Sequence record: MK482688.1
Length of the DNA: 64,000 nt
Direction: 5' to 3' (one strand)
From: Escherichia phage vB_EcoM_LMP25
Below the pieces are notes generated by a model that worked only from the letters and a program-made list of their open reading frames with translations, made no database searches and had not been told where the DNA came from. Within the stretch, counting starts at the first letter, position 1. Every line of letters begins with the position of its first letter. Shown piece by piece: positions 1,150 to 47,550 of this stretch. The translations under genes were made by a program, and so were the position numbers.

Positions 1150-1161
1150 AATATCTTAAGA

Positions 1162-1190
1162 GCCTCCTTAATTGGGGGCTTTTTAATTTT
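1162..1190 (+). terminator. rho-independent terminator
   Basis: GCCTCC-ttaatt-GGGGGC stem-loop (one G-U pair) followed by TTTTTAATTTTT. Confidence 0.5.
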
Positions 1191-1199
1191 TATAAAATT

Positions 1200-2732
1200 T
1201 TATCGGTTGTCCCAACCTCTGGGTCACCATCATATGTGAACAAAATATCTACCCTTCTTAACAACCTTCTTAAGCTTACTCTCTATATATAGTTATATAG
1301 TACTATATAGTATCTTAGTATCTATCTAGTGGTCTTAATAGCCCTCTGTATAACCCTTCTAACAAGCCCTCTAACAAGCCTTCTTAACAACCTATACAAT
1401 CACCTTAACCACCTCTCTATACCCTCTTAGAAGCTCCTATACACCTCTTAATCTCTAGGTTAGCTATGACACTCTCTATAGGTGTTCACTAGGTATTACT
1501 AAGCCTCTATATAGACTGTTTTAACAAACTTAACAGGAATATCTTCACAGACCTTATCTCACAAGGTCTAACACGGTACTAACAAGGTATCTTATAAGCC
1601 TGTTATTACCTGTATTTTAGAAAGGCTGTATAGGTAATTATTCAGAATCTTAAAATTTTTATAAAATAGGACTATCAAGTCATTTTTTAGGGTCTTTGAA
1701 GGAACTGAAAAATATCTGTAGAAGATGTATATCTGCTTGGTAGCCCTTAACAACTCCCTTACAAGTACTTTGCAAAATTTTAAATATCATTAACAATTCC
1801 TTAACAACTCTCTCAAGTTCTTAACATCTCTTCAGAGGTCTTAACAGATTCTTAACAGAACTAACAAGGTTGTAACAAGTTCTTAACAGTTGATACATAG
1901 GCTTTACAGAATCTTAACAGATGACTAACAAGAGCTAACAAGTTAATTTTTAAGAGTTATTTTGTTAAGATAATTAACAAGTTTCTAACAAGTGTTTAAT
2001 CTTTTTAACAAGCTATTAACATGGTCACTACTCTTTTCTTATCGTTCCCTTTCCCTCTTAGTGATTCTCTAAACATACCTCTTAAAAGCTCTCTATAGCT
2101 CTTTATAAGCTCTTTTAAGCCTCTTCCTAGTAATTACACCCCAACTGTACAGATACCTCTTTATAAGGCTTTACAGGGGCTTTAAAGGCTATGTCAAAGG
2201 TTCTTACAAGGCTTTTACGTTGTCTTAACAGAGATTTAACAAGGGGCTAACAAGTTGCTAACAAGCATAACTATGTAGGGATTGTTAAGAAATTGTTAAG
2301 AAAATGTTAAGGGGGCTAGCATTTACGTAACTTTTAAGCAACTTCAAAGTAACTTTATAGCCCCTATAACATACTTTTAAGACACTAACAAGCCCTTTTT
2401 AGATATTCACAAGATAGCTAACGAGATAATAAAGCTTATAACCTTATAAGATTCTTTTAAGCCTCTATAAAGCCCTGTAAAGAGCTTTTTAAGGTTGGTT
2501 AATGCAATCCCTTAAGTTAGGTTGATAAGGCTGTTATAGAGCTTTATAGAGCATTTAAATGGGCCATCCCCTTTCTGGGGTTATTGGCTTTTATTTAAGT
2601 TGATTTGATAAAAGGTTATAGAGTAGACTATAGAGTTATTGCTTTTTAAGGTATGAGATAGATTCTATCGAATTAGTGGGATAGATTCTAGGAAGGAAAG
2701 GGAAAGGGTTGTATAGAGGCTATTACATAGAC
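1200..2732. repeat. ORF-free, G-depleted (on + strand) region dense in degenerate short words (CTTAACAAG, CTCTATA, CTTTTAAG) in both orientations
   Basis: No ORF of 60 aa or more on either strand over about 1.5 kb between convergent terminators; words counted by eye. Confidence 0.6.
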
Positions 2733-2787
2733 GTAAAAAAGCCCCTATGAGAAGGAGCTTTTCAGGTATCTGGGGCTATTTAGCCCC
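2733..2787 (-). terminator. tandem stem-loops ending the - strand early array
   Basis: On - strand GCTCCT-tctcat-AGGGGC followed by TTTTTT (plus 2735-2758), and GGGGCTAAATAGCCCC at 2772-2787. Confidence 0.45.
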
Positions 2788-2797
2788 GTTGCGTCGA

Positions 2798-8743: not shown

Positions 8744-9127
8744 TTATTTGTTAATTTTGAAGATAGTTACATAACCATCGCTGCCGATGATTTGTGATGC
8801 TCCAGCTTTTTCTACTTGATAGCCCATATTTTCAAGATGGTAAACAGCATCATCATAACCATATGCGCCGCCCTGATAACGTCTCTTATCACATCTTACT
8901 AATACCTTTCCACGTCCTGCCAGTGCATTTAGTACGGCTTTTTCACTTGAAAGTGTACCATCTAACATGGTTGCCGTGTAATGGTTGATTCTATTCCCGT
9001 TTACATCATACTTAAAATTGAATGCGTGAACAACGATAATGTTACCTTTAAAATTCTCATCAAGTGACTTCTCCAGTGCGTTGCGAAAGTTGTCTTTGTT
9101 GATGAATTTAGGTGCACGATATGCCAT
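8744..9127 (-). CDS. hypothetical early protein, first gene of array
   Basis: 127 aa, ATG verified. Confidence 0.55.
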   Translation of the reverse strand: MAYRAPKFINKDNFRNALEKSLDENFKGNIIVVHAFNFKYDVNGNRINHYTATMLDGTLSSEKAVLNALAGRGKVLVRCDKRRYQGGAYGYDDAVYHLENMGYQVEKAGASQIIGSDGYVTIFKINK

Positions 9128-9190
9128 TTTTGAATCTCCAGTTTAGGACTTTATTTAGTGGGGAAGGTCATTCCCTCCCCGTTGATGCAA
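9128..9190 (-). promoter_or_regulatory. F1 intergenic cassette
   Basis: Conserved block upstream of first array gene. Confidence 0.5.
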
Positions 9191-9219
9191 ATACTAGATA
9201 ACCACGTTCAAAGAGTCAA
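9191..9219 (-). promoter_or_regulatory. sigma70-like promoter for early array
   Basis: On - strand TTGACT (9219-9214), 17 nt spacer, TAGTAT (9196-9191). Confidence 0.4.
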
Positions 9220-9341
9220 GAAAAAATTTTAAAAATATTTTTGGCAAAACTGTAATGAAACGGGCGCACACAACTACCACAAAACAGAACACAAATCAAG
9301 AATTATTTTTCAATCCGCTACAAATTTTTCTCTTGACTTTT

Positions 9342-9372
9342 GGGGAGAGGGGGAGTAAGAGGGGGAGAGGGG
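9342..9372 (+). repeat. polypurine mirror repeat / G-quadruplex motif
   Basis: GGGGagaGGGGGagtaagaGGGGGagaGGGG; four G-runs of 4-5 with loops of 3, 7 and 3 nt. Confidence 0.6.
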
Positions 9373-9395
9373 TTGGTCTGGCTCTCTATAAAAAC

Positions 9396-9590
9396 CTACC
9401 TGCACAAATCTAAAATGATTTTTCTTGCCCGACCTGAGTGTGGTCTGCACGTTTTGAAAATGAAAAAGCTCTTTGGAGATTATCTGCACAGTTTGAAAAT
9501 GAATTTTCTCTTTGGAGTTCAAAATTCTCTCTACAGATTTCTCTACAGAACTCTACCTGCACAATTCTGAAATGAAAAAGCCCTCCTTAC
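9396..9590. repeat. four direct repeats CTGCAC-N3-TTGAAAATGA at about 40 bp spacing
   Basis: Copies near 9405, 9440, 9484 and 9560 on + strand; no ORF. Confidence 0.5.
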
Positions 9591-9648
9591 CTGAAAAATT
9601 TACCAGATAAGAAAGGCTTAGGCTATTGTGAATATCCTACAGAGTTTC

Positions 9649-10434
9649 TTAGTTCTTTGCGTCTAAGAAGGTAACTTCTGGTGAAGAGAAAACTGTCTCG
9701 ATATCCTCATCAGTTCTTGCATAGATATAAGTATCTGCATCACTGCCAAATGTTACTGCAATCCTGTGATTGCTCTTCGACAGGTGGGTAACTAGAGCGT
9801 TACTTAGAGACATCTTTTCAACCGGAGGGTTACTTTGATGTATCTTACCTTTTCTTCGTCTGAAGAGGGTAACTGCGTTATCTGTGAACACTGCTACACC
9901 TGCAAAGTATTCTGGTTCACAGTAGTTCTTCCAACCTGAGCGTAACTTGTGGTACATCTCTCCTTCGTAGACATAAAGATACACATCTACACTCTTCATC
10001 ACCTGATTAATGATAACTGTGACGGCTTGAGGGTCTAGTCCACCGATACCTGCACCAATCATAGGTAACCCAACTTTCTTCAACTGATTGACTTCACAGT
10101 ATCTGTTAAGTTGTTTCAAAGATGACTCTAAAGCACTGTATCGGGCATCTTTACCAGTCTTAAGCTGAGTGTAAAGGTTAGCTATACGGCCTTGTTCTAA
10201 ACGTGCTACAGAGAAATTACCCAGTAGATTTTCACAGGGTTTGTGACCTATACCACCTGCATAGAGGTAAACTTCTGTATCGGTCTCATATGCTTTTGGG
10301 TAAAGTTTAGAAATCTTGTCAGCGATACCTGCACCCATTAAATTCATACAGTTGCAACCGTGACCAATGATGTCAAACTTACCTTTATCAAATGCTGCAA
10401 AGATATCGCCATTGATGATTTTTACAATACCCAT
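9649..10434 (-). CDS. macro-domain-like protein (putative ADP-ribose binding/processing) with unknown C-terminal domain
   Basis: N-terminal GDIF..DIIGHGCNCMNLMGAGIADKI and GLPMIGAGIGGLD resemble macro-domain Gly-rich motifs (from memory). Confidence 0.45.
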   Translation of the reverse strand: MGIVKIINGDIFAAFDKGKFDIIGHGCNCMNLMGAGIADKISKLYPKAYETDTEVYLYAGGIGHKPCENLLGNFSVARLEQGRIANLYTQLKTGKDARYSALESSLKQLNRYCEVNQLKKVGLPMIGAGIGGLDPQAVTVIINQVMKSVDVYLYVYEGEMYHKLRSGWKNYCEPEYFAGVAVFTDNAVTLFRRRKGKIHQSNPPVEKMSLSNALVTHLSKSNHRIAVTFGSDADTYIYARTDEDIETVFSSPEVTFLDAKN

Positions 10435-13684: not shown

Positions 13685-13747
13685 TGGTTCTCCTGTTTAG
13701 TTTATCGTGACAACAATTATACAGCACTCTGCACAAAATACAAATAA

Positions 13748-13778
13748 AAAAGGCCGCCGAAGCAGCCTTTTAAGAAAT
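13748..13778 (-). terminator. rho-independent terminator
   Basis: On - strand GGCTGC-UUCG-GCGGCC followed by TTTTTTATTT. Confidence 0.5.
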
Positions 13779-38800: not shown

Positions 38801-39057
38801 GTAAGCCTCTTTTAAGTAACTATTAAGTTTTAATCTTTTATCTTAACGTATTCTATACGTTATACTTTAAAGCTTTTTAAAAGCTATTAAATAATCTTTT
38901 AAGAGTTTTAAAGTATCTGTATAGTTAAACTGTTAAGTAACCTTTTAAGTAAAAACCCACTTCGCAAAGATTAACACCTTGTCAAGTACATTGTCAACTT
39001 GCTTTTTATAATTTTTTGCAGTAATGTATGAGGTTAATGATTTTAGAGGGAGTAAAA
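38801..39057. promoter_or_regulatory. divergent promoter region
   Basis: AT-rich 257 bp between divergent blocks; TTGTCA..TATAAT-like elements; repeated CTTTTAAG words. Confidence 0.5.
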
Positions 39058-47045: not shown

Positions 47046-47258
47046 ATGGCTCTTAAAAAGTTACATCCCAGAAGCGGTTATGGTAAGATAATTGACGATA
47101 CAGACGGCTTTACAGTCTTTACAGTTATCTGTCAAGATGATTCACAGATTGAAAAGGCTCTTGATGATTATCTTAACGATGAACGTGAAAAGGTTAGGGC
47201 TACAAACATAGATTCATTGATTGACACTTCACGCAAACGGAAGAAGAAAGATGAATGA
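47046..47258 (+). CDS. hypothetical protein
   Basis: 70 aa ORF. Confidence 0.45.
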   Translation: MALKKLHPRSGYGKIIDDTDGFTVFTVICQDDSQIEKALDDYLNDEREKVRATNIDSLIDTSRKRKKKDE

Positions 47259-47550
47259 AGCTTTTGACCCTTATGCTCCACAAGATGATTGGGAGGCTGA
47301 TAGAGAGGCTGAAATGGAGAGTTATATTTGTCCAATGGATGTAGACGAAATGAGAGACTTCGTTGCACATCGTTTTAAGAGAGAGATTAAATCCAGAGGT
47401 CTTTCTCAAGAGCAAGTTGCTAAAATTTGTGGCATCTCTCAAGCTCGTGTATCCAACATAATCCACCTCACTGGTAATGTTTCCCTTGAGTATATGTTGG
47501 AAGTATGTGAAAAATTTGGTGTTAATTTTAATTTAAGGTTGGCAGATTAA
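47251..47550 (+). CDS. helix-turn-helix DNA-binding protein (XRE-like)
   Basis: LSQEQVAKICGISQARVSNI HTH; ATGA overlap start at 47251. Confidence 0.5.
   Translation: MNEAFDPYAPQDDWEADREAEMESYICPMDVDEMRDFVAHRFKREIKSRGLSQEQVAKICGISQARVSNIIHLTGNVSLEYMLEVCEKFGVNFNLRLAD

What the first reader, a model, noticed from the sequence alone, without database searches (positions are those of the whole stretch)
9396..9590. Four iteron-like direct repeats beside an AT-rich tract
Four copies of CTGCAC-N3-TTGAAAATGA at roughly 40 bp spacing lie between the macro-domain gene and the early-array promoter, next to an A/T tract (9220-9330) and the G-rich mirror repeat. Iterons plus an AT-rich unwinding element is the classic architecture of a replication origin or regulatory hub.
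Basis: seen in the sequence. Interest (0 to 1): 0.55.

Follow-up and report, generated by a model that had tools for sequence, protein, structure and literature searches.

The report
Conserved repeat array in Felix-O1-like phages
A cluster of four short repeated DNA words in a gene-free gap of a Felix-O1-type phage genome is real, is kept almost unchanged across the whole phage subfamily and beyond, and most likely serves as docking sites for a DNA-binding protein, but nothing yet shows that DNA replication starts there.

Summary
The window is a Felixounavirus, 100% identical here to Escherichia phage vB_EcoM_LMP33. Genes in this region run on the minus strand.

The four repeats are real. Their 25-nt cores lie at 9399-9423, 9444-9468, 9483-9507 and 9556-9580. 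They score 44-54 bits against a shuffle maximum of 6.5. The only other site in the 88-kb genome is a weak outlier at 13,724-13,763.

On the gene-sense strand the unit reads GAG-n-TTTTTCATTTyCAAnnnGTGCAG. The array sits in a 520-nt gap, after the terminator of the macro-domain operon and before the first promoter of the small early genes.

It is present in four Ounavirinae genera and in two uncultivated lineages whose macro protein is only 33-36% identical. Its cores are as conserved as the first and second codon positions of the adjacent gene.

It is not a gene, not a structured RNA, not a genome end, and has no counterpart in host genomes.

Features specific to a replication origin are weak:
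- the repeats are not helically phased;
- the AT tract is ordinary;
- the G-rich mirror is dispensable;
- there are no DnaA or IHF boxes and no initiator gene nearby;
- the GC-skew minimum and the least stable DNA lie elsewhere.

Verdict: a genuine, undescribed cis-element, most likely a protein-binding array. The origin reading is plausible but unproven.

The parts
9578..9619 (-). Intrinsic terminator of the operon that ends with the macro-domain gene (9649-10434, minus). Its T-run is also the T-rich half of repeat copy 1.
   Evidence: The terminator scan finds 17 pairs with 6 G-C pairs, followed by TTTCATTTCA. It is annotated as a terminator in wV8 and ASO1A.
9556..9580 (-). Repeat copy 1. 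Sense strand: CTTTTTCATTTCAGAATTGTGCAGG.
   Evidence: 36.6 bits for the core, 54.1 bits for the 40-mer.
9508..9555 (-). Spacer holding a decayed repeat copy (GTAGAG x3). It aligns with an intact copy in Erwinia phage Ea21-4.
   Evidence: Alignments A1 and A3. Ea21-4 copies are spaced 37/37/39.
9483..9507 (-). Repeat copy 2. Sense strand: AAAATTCATTTTCAAACTGTGCAGA. It has decayed in the phiWec177, EcoM2 and L079 lineage.
9444..9468 (-). Repeat copy 3. Sense strand: CTTTTTCATTTTCAAAACGTGCAGA.
9399..9423 (-). Repeat copy 4. Sense strand: AAAAATCATTTTAGATTTGTGCAGG.
9342..9372 (+). G-rich mirror repeat and G-quadruplex motif (C-rich on the gene-sense strand). It is an optional neighbour of the array.
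   Evidence: It is one of only two such motifs in the 64-kb window. It is conserved in Moogle- and Suspvirus but replaced by unrelated sequence in many Felixounaviruses.
9288..9311 (-). Degenerate fifth repeat-like element. Sense strand: GAAAAATAATTCTTGATTTGTG.
   Evidence: Direct-repeat family D4, 86% identical to copy 4. The same family appears in L114.
9211..9341 (.). Conserved unique spacer bounded by a 20-nt inverted repeat, each arm carrying TTGACT preceded by a T-tract. It includes the AT-rich tract 9221-9260.
   Evidence: Inverted repeat I1; conservation; stability ranking.
9191..9219 (-). Sigma-70-type promoter (TTGACT-17-TAGTAT) of the first small early gene (8744-9127, minus).
   Evidence: Promoter scan. 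ASO1A annotates a promoter in this intergenic region. It is the best sense-strand match in every lineage except Ea21-4, where the annotated TTGACT-17-TATATT site fell outside the interval scored.
13724..13763 (-). Single outlier site: rIIB terminator, then TTTTTTATTTG-N6-GTGCAG, then TATAAT 7 nt further on. The motif overlaps the -35 and spacer region of a promoter.
   Evidence: 14.7 bits against a shuffle maximum of 6.5. It is the only other GTGCAG in the window with a TCATTT-like word 13 nt upstream. GTGCAG is kept in three lineages while the flanking spacer bases change. The site was not found in the first 12 kb of the Ea21-4 record, which spans rIIA through the early genes.

Best explanation
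The four repeats, together with one decayed and one degenerate copy, are a deeply conserved array of recognition sites on double-stranded DNA for a sequence-specific DNA-binding protein. The array sits in the gene-free boundary between the operon that ends with the macro-domain gene and the block of small, individually promoted early genes.

My preferred mechanism is as follows. Several copies of one protein, not yet identified, occupy the bipartite words TCATTT-N7-GTGCAG and build a nucleoprotein complex. This complex marks the phage's internal replication start, so the array acts like iterons. The neighbouring promoter region supplies the easily opened DNA.

Shown: the repeats exist, are unique in the genome, are under strong purifying selection, and are neither coding nor a structured RNA.

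Inferred: that a protein binds them.

Guessed: that the complex fires replication rather than controlling transcription.
For: - Statistics and uniqueness in the genome.
- Position-by-position orthology of the copies, with spacing kept, across Felixouna-, Moogle-, Susp- and Kolesnikvirus.
- Arrays of 4 and 6 copies of the same word in two uncultivated lineages whose macro protein is only 33-36% identical to ours. There the array is 0.7-2.1 kb from that gene and not fused to a terminator.
- Cores are 68% invariant across three genera and 54% invariant when Ea21-4 is included. Third codon positions of the adjacent gene are 20% and 10% invariant, first and second positions 63% and 40%. Spacers between cores are 42% and 16% invariant.
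- Conserved core, free spacer and variable copy number (3-6) is the signature of independent protein-binding sites.
- All four copies read GTGCAT in the Erwinia phages, as do the six in lineage L115, against GTGCAG elsewhere. This is a concerted change.
- The gap is 520-800 nt long in otherwise compact genomes. It carries further lineage-specific repeats and G-rich tracts, as complex origins do.
- A promoter aimed into the array from the far side is significant in two lineages.
Against: - No protein partner was identified. The flanking and operon genes have no recognisable DNA-binding or initiator domain. The only HTH protein found is an XRE-type 99-aa protein 38 kb away.
- Spacing between copies (35, 37, 39, 41, 45, 47 nt) does not keep sites on one face of the helix, unlike classical iterons.
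- The AT tract is not unusually unstable.
- There are no DnaA, IHF or Fis consensus sites.
- The GC-skew minimum and the most unstable 100 bp lie at the divergent DNA-polymerase/primase junction near 38.8 kb.
- The small step in GC skew near 10 kb has the opposite sign to that expected of an origin. It is confounded by gene class.
- A 1.6-kb repeat-dense non-coding region at 1.15-2.79 kb is at least as origin-like.
- The outlier site overlaps a promoter, which suits a transcription factor better.
Confidence: 0.35

Rival explanations
1. The array is a set of operator-like sites for a phage or host transcription factor. This factor manages the boundary between the upstream operon and the early-gene block. 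It could act as a roadblock to terminator read-through, by looping to the promoter that carries the outlier site 4.1 kb upstream, or by long-range control of the first early promoter.
For: - The array lies exactly between a terminator and a strong sigma-70-type promoter.
- The single outlier copy sits over the -35 and spacer of the promoter that starts the very operon the array ends. Its GTGCAG is conserved in three lineages while neighbouring spacer bases vary.
- The phage encodes an XRE-type HTH protein.
- Site spacing is not phased, which independent operators tolerate.
Against: - The array copies lie 180-370 nt upstream of the early promoter, and 250-450 nt upstream in L116. None overlaps a promoter.
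- The roughly 15 other early promoters of the block carry no such site.
- The units have no dyad symmetry, which XRE-type dimers usually need.
- The outlier is absent from Ea21-4.
Confidence: 0.28
2. The array acts as RNA. It would be transcribed either by read-through of the terminator or from an antisense promoter beyond it. This would give an unstructured multi-repeat RNA that soaks up or is processed by an RNA-binding protein or nuclease, in the manner of type III antitoxin repeats (ToxI-like) or sponge RNAs.
For: - The tandem period of 35-47 nt and the 3-6 copies fall in the range I recall for type III antitoxin arrays (from memory, not checked here).
- The array adjoins a terminator.
- Unphased, variable spacing does not matter for RNA.
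- Antisense promoter-like sites aimed at the array reach 10 of 12 matches in Ea21-4 and L116.
Against: - No Rfam family matches at E up to 1.
- There is no excess folding energy once the terminator is removed: z = -0.7 on the sense strand, -0.9 on the antisense strand, and +0.4 to +1.5 for five of the six single units, the sixth being -0.5.
- The consensus structure is essentially empty on both strands, at -3.2 and -1.5 kcal/mol, with negligible covariation.
- Copies are only 66-83% alike, unlike antitoxin repeats.
- No toxin-like gene follows, and the downstream gene varies between phages.
- No similar repeats occur in 5,426 E. coli genomes, 72,556 plasmids or 185,579 species genomes.
- The antisense promoter is not significant in Felixouna-, Moogle- and Suspvirus, with p = 0.6-0.9.
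Confidence: 0.1
3. The array marks a stop or pause point for stepwise DNA entry, comparable to the first-step-transfer boundary of phage T5. It would separate the host-takeover early block, which enters first, from the rest of the genome.
For: In UAB_Phi87, whose ends were mapped experimentally, the array lies about 22 kb from one physical end. The early block and its first promoter lie on the end-proximal side of the array (PMC4837284).
Against: - Which end enters first is unknown.
- The end-proximal 22 kb also holds tRNA and lysis genes.
- No evidence for two-step transfer in this family turned up in the papers I searched.
Confidence: 0.04
4. The region encodes a small protein, as several GenBank records annotate it (wV8 gp13, three small ORFs in LMP33, Michonne gp098, EcoM2_00053).
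For: Open frames of 45-76 codons cross the repeats on both strands of the window, and depositors annotated them.
Against: - No frame stays open across genera.
- 2-nt insertions and deletions shift the frame between copies: spacing is 39 or 41 nt, and 37 nt in Ea21-4. wV8 carries a 2-nt deletion.
- The annotated ORFs lie on different strands in different records.
- Every frame of Ea21-4 has stop codons.
Confidence: 0.02
5. The repeats are a packaging or terminus recognition site.
For: One GenBank record (EC106) starts about 45 nt from the array.
Against: The ends of UAB_Phi87, mapped by Bal31 and run-off sequencing, are a 608-bp direct terminal repeat in the tRNA region. The record's first 542 nt equal its last 542 nt, and they lie about 22 kb from the array, outside the window (PMC4837284).
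Confidence: 0.01

Closest known systems
Iteron-type origins (phage lambda ori with four 19-bp repeats and an AT-rich flank; plasmids P1, F, RK2, pSC101, R6K). Described from general knowledge.
   Same: A handful (3-6) of direct repeats sharing a roughly 20-25-nt consensus. They are unique in the replicon, lie next to an A+T-richer stretch, and have conserved cores with freer spacers.
   Different: Spacing is 35-47 nt and unphased, rather than about 22 nt. No initiator gene contains or adjoins the repeats. There are no DnaA or IHF boxes. The AT stretch is not exceptional. The site sequence is conserved across phages whose accessory proteins are only 33-44% identical, whereas lambdoid iterons co-vary with their O protein.
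Transcription-primed phage origins (T4 oriF/oriG, the T7 primary origin). Described from general knowledge.
   Same: The phage has a T7-gp4-like primase-helicase and its own DNA polymerase, and no recognisable initiator. The site is intergenic and flanked by promoters. A G-rich tract lies between a possible antisense promoter and the array in several lineages.
   Different: The antisense promoter is significant in only two lineages. The G-rich tract is dispensable. Those origins have no repeated protein-site array.
Operator clusters of phage regulators, and the 43-bp sopC repeats of plasmid F. Described from general knowledge.
   Same: Multiple direct copies of a protein-binding word with a roughly 40-nt period. 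One extra copy overlaps a promoter.
   Different: The units have no dyad symmetry. The array is 180-370 nt from the nearest promoter. No ParA/ParB-type genes are annotated in the two complete records inspected.
Type III antitoxin repeat RNAs (ToxI and relatives) and phage pseudo-ToxI decoys. Described from memory.
   Same: Tandem period of 35-47 nt, 3-6 copies, next to a terminator.
   Different: Copies are only 66-83% alike. There is no Rfam match, no conserved fold, no toxin gene and no host counterpart.

Membership tests
Iteron-type replication origin | Three or more direct repeats of about 17-25 bp sharing a consensus, clustered at one locus | tested here: met
   Four intact copies plus one decayed and one degenerate copy. 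They score 44-54 bits against a shuffle maximum of 6.5.
Iteron-type replication origin | Repeats regularly phased, about 22 bp apart or a whole number of helical turns | tested here: not met
   Start-to-start spacings are 45/39/73 here, 45/41/75 in Mooglevirus, 37/37/39 in Ea21-4, 91/35/45 in L116 and about 47 in L115.
Iteron-type replication origin | Adjacent A+T-rich unwinding element of unusually low duplex stability | tested here: inconclusive
   The best 40-bp window (9221-9260) is in the top 0.8% of the genome. At 100 bp, 12% of windows are less stable. The tract doubles as the UP-like region of a promoter. The least stable DNA lies at 38.8 kb and 1.2-2.7 kb.
Iteron-type replication origin | Cognate initiator gene containing or adjoining the repeats | tested here: not met
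   The flanking genes are a macro-domain protein and small proteins with no Pfam or PHROG DNA-binding or Rep match. The macro gene exists as two alleles only 42% identical, beside the same array.
Iteron-type replication origin | Host-factor sites (DnaA box, IHF) | tested here: not met
   No DnaA box (strict with one mismatch, or relaxed), IHF or Fis consensus in 9128-9648.
Iteron-type replication origin | Replication demonstrably initiates at the site | not testable with these tools
   This needs marker-frequency sequencing, 2D gels or an origin-cloning assay. The GC-skew minimum is at about 38 kb, but it is confounded by gene orientation.
Transcription-primed origin (T4 oriF/G, T7 type) | Promoter firing into the element | tested here: inconclusive
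   The antisense promoter matches 10 of 12 in Ea21-4 (p about 0.06) and L116 (p about 0.02). It is not significant in the window or in four related phages of the Felixouna-, Moogle- and Suspvirus groups, with p = 0.6-0.9.
Promoter-proximal operator array | Sites overlap or abut the regulated promoter | tested here: inconclusive
   The four array copies do not, lying 180-370 nt upstream. The single outlier does, over the -35 and spacer of the promoter after rIIB.
Type III antitoxin-like repeat RNA | Near-identical tandem repeats adjoining a toxin endoribonuclease gene, with a family RNA model match | tested here: not met
   Copies are 66-83% alike. The downstream gene is variable and the one in this window has no Pfam family. 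There is no Rfam hit and no conserved structure.
Protein-coding small ORF (as annotated in several records) | A reading frame kept open and in register across relatives | tested here: not met
   Six-frame comparison in 8 lineages shows frameshifting indels, and stop codons in all frames of Ea21-4.
Packaging or terminus site | Coincides with the physical genome ends | tested here: not met
   The mapped terminal repeat of UAB_Phi87 is about 22 kb away and outside the window (PMC4837284).

The most novel reading that the evidence does not exclude
The array is not a DNA site at all. It would be transcribed, from the antisense promoter seen in two lineages or by terminator read-through, into an unstructured multi-repeat RNA. 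Its 35-47-nt units would titrate or be processed by a conserved RNA-binding protein or nuclease. That would make it a phage-borne decoy of the kind known for type III toxin-antitoxin systems, but fixed across a whole phage subfamily.
Probability: 0.08. Interest if true: 0.8.

Novelty: new member of a known kind. Interest (0 to 1): 0.45.

Why it matters
Felix O1 and its relatives are classic typing and biocontrol phages. The papers I could search do not say how their transcription is timed and give no replication origin (PMC3185647).

This array is the most strongly conserved non-coding element I found in the region. It is unique in the genome and survives in lineages whose neighbouring proteins have drifted to about 35% identity.

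That gives experimenters a short, precisely defined probe of about 25 bp, repeated four times, with which to fish out the binding protein and to test origin function.

If it is the origin, it would define a new initiator-site pair for a large phage group and help in engineering these phages. If it is a regulatory boundary, it would expose how the host-takeover block is insulated from the replication genes.

It also shows that the small ORFs annotated across this gap in many GenBank records are probably spurious.

Tried and rejected
- **Small ORF.** Rejected by the frame comparison.
- **Structured RNA.** No Rfam hit, no excess folding energy and an empty consensus structure on both strands.
- **Mimic of a host or plasmid repeat.** There is no match in E. 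coli genomes, and only chance-level matches in plasmids. The two-copy pattern search in 185,579 species genomes returned only unrelated tandem repeats in distant metagenome-assembled genomes.
- **Genome end or pac site.** Rejected using the mapped ends of UAB_Phi87.
- **Sigma-70, sigma-54, sigma-E, sigma-32 or T4 MotA-type promoters in each unit.** I compared these by eye against consensus sequences recalled from memory. No unit has a usable -10 at the right distance, and the promoter scan hits are not conserved between relatives.
- **Host-factor sites.** DnaA, IHF and Fis were tested by pattern and not found. CRP, Fur, LexA, MarA and ops/RfaH were compared by eye only, and none fits.
- **Link to the macro-domain gene.** Rejected for four reasons. 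More distant macro-gene phages (L036, L037) have no array. The array persists beside a 42%-identical allele of the gene. It lies 0.7-2.1 kb from the gene in L115 and L116. The C-terminal extension of the protein is not conserved with Ea21-4. For these reasons I ran no further search on it.
- **Binder encoded in the operon bounded by the sites.** No DNA-binding domain was found.
- **Antisense promoter as a universal feature.** It is significant in only two of seven lineages.
- **Literature.** No paper in the searchable library mentions the motif, an origin or iterons for this phage family.

Full report
**Identity and setting**

Bases 9100-9700 of the window are 100% identical to Escherichia phage vB_EcoM_LMP33. 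They are 95-98% identical to Felix O1, wV8, UAB_Phi87 and many other Felixounaviruses. Genes here run on the minus strand.

The repeats lie in a 520-nt gene-free gap, 9128-9648. Upstream, in the direction of transcription, is a 261-aa protein with a Macro domain (9649-10434). It is followed by an intrinsic terminator at 9619 to 9578 (annotated as such in wV8 and ASO1A). Downstream is a sigma-70-type promoter, TTGACT-17-TAGTAT, at 9219 to 9191. After it comes the first of a series of small early genes. Each of these has a repeated leader: 9123-9187 recurs nine more times between about 3.0 and 8.3 kb. The repeat cluster itself occurs nowhere else.

The pattern CTGCAC-N3-TTGAAAATGA matches at 9400, 9445, 9484 and 9557, with 2, 0, 0 and 3 mismatches. 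The whole window has 8 matches at up to 3 mismatches against 1.44 expected. The other four are scattered and at chance level.

A weight matrix built from 56 distinct copies in relatives scores the four sites 44-54 bits in the complete 88,409-bp LMP33 genome. Shuffled genomes never exceed 6.5 bits.

Spacing is 45, 39 and 73 nt. The most informative positions are a G about 6 nt before TCATTT, then TCATTT itself, then GTGCAG.

Copies alternate between GCTTTTTCA and GAAAATTCA forms. The 73-nt gap aligns with an intact copy in Erwinia phage Ea21-4, so it is a decayed unit. A further degenerate copy lies at 9288-9311.

**Conservation**

A 331-nt query across the array finds 291 phage records, all Ounavirinae apart from a few evidently mislabelled ones. 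Identity is about 75% to Mooglevirus and Suspvirus. To the Erwinia and Hafnia Kolesnikvirus group only the repeat part (window 9401-9503) still aligns.

Across 28 loci the four copies are positional orthologues, with spacing 73-77, 39-41 and 45. Ea21-4 has four copies at 37/37/39.

In a 24-sequence alignment, 68% of core positions are invariant across three genera, and 54% when Ea21-4 is included. For third codon positions of the adjacent gene the figures are 20% and 10%. For first and second positions they are 63% and 40%. For the spacers between cores they are 42% and 16%.

Homologues of the macro protein led to two uncultivated, much more distant lineages, at 33-36% protein identity.
- L116 has four copies of GGACTAACGAGCTTTTTCATTCTGAAACTGTGCAG at 91/35/45. 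They lie inside an 800-nt gene-free region that also holds other repeat families. The copies are not fused to the terminator and sit in a genome of higher G+C.
- L115 has six copies with a period of about 47 nt, ending in GTGCATA(A/G)G.
- The only similarity between L116's non-coding region and any GenBank phage is to these repeats.

Some Felixounaviruses carry a macro-gene allele only 42% identical to ours yet keep copies 1, 3 and 4 nearly unchanged. In that lineage copy 2 has decayed. The array is therefore far more conserved than its neighbours and does not track them.

**What it is not**

It is not a gene. No frame stays open across lineages. 2-nt indels and 37- or 41-nt spacings shift the frame. 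Depositors' small ORFs lie on different strands in different records.

It is not a recognisable or structured RNA.
- There is no Rfam match at E up to 1.
- Without the terminator, folding z-scores are -0.7 on the sense strand and -0.9 on the antisense strand. Five of the six single units fold no better than shuffles (z +0.4 to +1.5), and the sixth is only marginally better at -0.5.
- The alignment consensus is nearly empty on both strands, with negligible covariation.

It is not a copy of anything in hosts. There is no match in 5,426 E. coli genomes, only chance-level matches in plasmids, and only unrelated tandem repeats in other bacteria and non-Ounavirinae viral or metagenomic contigs.

It is not a genome end. 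UAB_Phi87, 98% identical here, has experimentally mapped 608-bp terminal repeats (PMC4837284). Its record starts and ends with the same 542 nt, in the tRNA region, about 22 kb from the array and outside this window.

**How it most likely works**

The array has conserved 25-nt cores, freely evolving spacers, a copy number that drifts between 3 and 6, and spacing that varies between lineages but is fixed for each pair of copies. This is the pattern expected of independent recognition sites for a sequence-specific DNA-binding protein.

All copies read GTGCAT in the Erwinia phages and in L115, and GTGCAG elsewhere. This is a concerted change. It points either to co-evolution with a partner or to homogenisation between copies.

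One extra site exists. After the rIIB terminator at 13,724-13,763 the sequence reads TTTTTTATTTG-N6-GTGCAG, followed 7 nt later by TATAAT. It is the only other GTGCAG in the window with a TCATTT-like word 13 nt upstream. Its GTGCAG is kept in three lineages while the surrounding promoter-spacer bases change. It is absent from Ea21-4. This promoter starts the operon that the array ends.

**Origin or regulator?**

In favour of an origin:
- the cluster is unique;
- it is deeply conserved;
- it lies in an unusually long gene-free gap with additional repeats and G-rich tracts;
- the phage has a T7-gp4-like primase-helicase and its own polymerase, and no recognisable initiator;
- in two lineages a good promoter points into the array.

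Against an origin:
- Spacing is not helically phased.
- The AT tract is ordinary. It is in the top 0.8% at 40 bp, but 12% of 100-bp windows are less stable, and it doubles as the UP-like part of the promoter.
- The G-rich mirror, a G-quadruplex motif, is replaced by unrelated sequence in many viable relatives.
- There are no DnaA, IHF or Fis consensus sites.
- No flanking or operon gene has a DNA-binding or Rep-like domain.
- The cumulative GC-skew minimum and the least stable 100 bp of the genome are at the divergent polymerase/primase junction near 38.8 kb.
- A 1.6-kb gene-free region at 1.15-2.79 kb is dense with CTTAACA-type repeats about 11 nt apart and holds several of the least stable stretches. 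It is at least as origin-like.

The outlier over a promoter favours a transcription factor. So does the array's position at the boundary between two blocks of genes that are probably timed differently. The distance of the array from any promoter, 180-370 nt, argues against simple operator action.

I put about 0.6 on 'protein-binding DNA array' as a whole. Within that, about 0.35 goes to an origin role and about 0.28 to a transcriptional boundary or regulatory role. The RNA readings get about 0.1.

**Novelty**

No paper in the searchable library mentions this motif, or an origin or iterons, for Felix O1-like phages. The Felix O1 genome paper lists only other direct repeats. The element is a new, well-delimited member of a familiar class, clustered direct repeats that act as protein-binding sites. 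Its conservation is unusually deep and its spacing is atypical.

Noticed in passing
window 1,150-2,790: A gene-free stretch of about 1.6 kb lies at the convergent junction between the early-gene block and the lysin block. It is packed with dozens of (T)CTTAACA(A/G), CTAACAAG and CTnTATAG-type short repeats at about 11-12 and 31-nt spacing in both orientations (26 direct-repeat families, 45 inverted pairs). It also holds several of the least stable 40-60-bp stretches of the whole genome. It is a rival origin or protein-array candidate.
   Followed up: partly
whole window (1-64000): GATC is completely absent, 0 sites against about 224 expected from base composition. CTAG, TCGA, GGCC, CCGG, GCGC and CGCG are also depleted. 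This suggests strong selection against Dam or restriction-type sites.
   Followed up: no
window 38,811-38,935: The divergent intergenic region between the DNA polymerase gene and the primase-helicase block is the least stable 100 bp of the genome (82% A+T). It contains a 27-nt near-palindrome and CTTTTAAGTAAC repeats, and it coincides with the cumulative GC-skew minimum. This is the textbook in-silico origin position.
   Followed up: partly
window 13,724-13,763: The rIIB terminator is followed by a single motif-like site that overlaps the -35 and spacer of a TATAAT promoter. Its GTGCAG is conserved in three lineages. This promoter starts the operon that the four-copy array ends.
   Followed up: partly
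window 9123-9187 and nine further places between about 3,056 and 8,299: A leader module of about 60 nt, made of a GGGGAGGGAATGACCTTCCCC hairpin plus a ribosome-binding site, is repeated in front of the small early genes. These are the 'DR' repeats annotated in wV8.
   Followed up: no
window 9342-9372, and the same place in L009, L012, L014 and others: The slot just downstream of copy 4 in the direction of transcription (to its left on the + strand) has two unrelated alleles. One is the polypurine/polypyrimidine mirror, a G-quadruplex motif. The other is a 55-nt sequence containing an extra GTGCAGGT. The array edge at about 9394 is therefore a mosaic junction.
   Followed up: partly
window 9649-10434, and L112-L114: The macro-domain gene exists in two alleles only 42% identical at protein level among otherwise near-identical Felixounaviruses. 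Its C-terminal portion of about 95 aa has no sequence match to any solved structure and does not align with the Erwinia-phage homologue.
   Followed up: partly
window 9255-9575 (both strands): Small ORFs annotated over the non-coding gap in several GenBank records (three in LMP33, wV8 gp13, Michonne gp098, EcoM2_00053) are not conserved as reading frames and are probably annotation artefacts.
   Followed up: yes
window 47,251-47,550 (+): This is the only helix-turn-helix protein I found among the 20 proteins of this phage scanned. It is a 99-aa XRE/Cro-type protein in the block that also holds the thymidylate synthase, ligase and polymerase genes. It is a candidate site-specific DNA binder, but nothing links it to the array.
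   Followed up: partly
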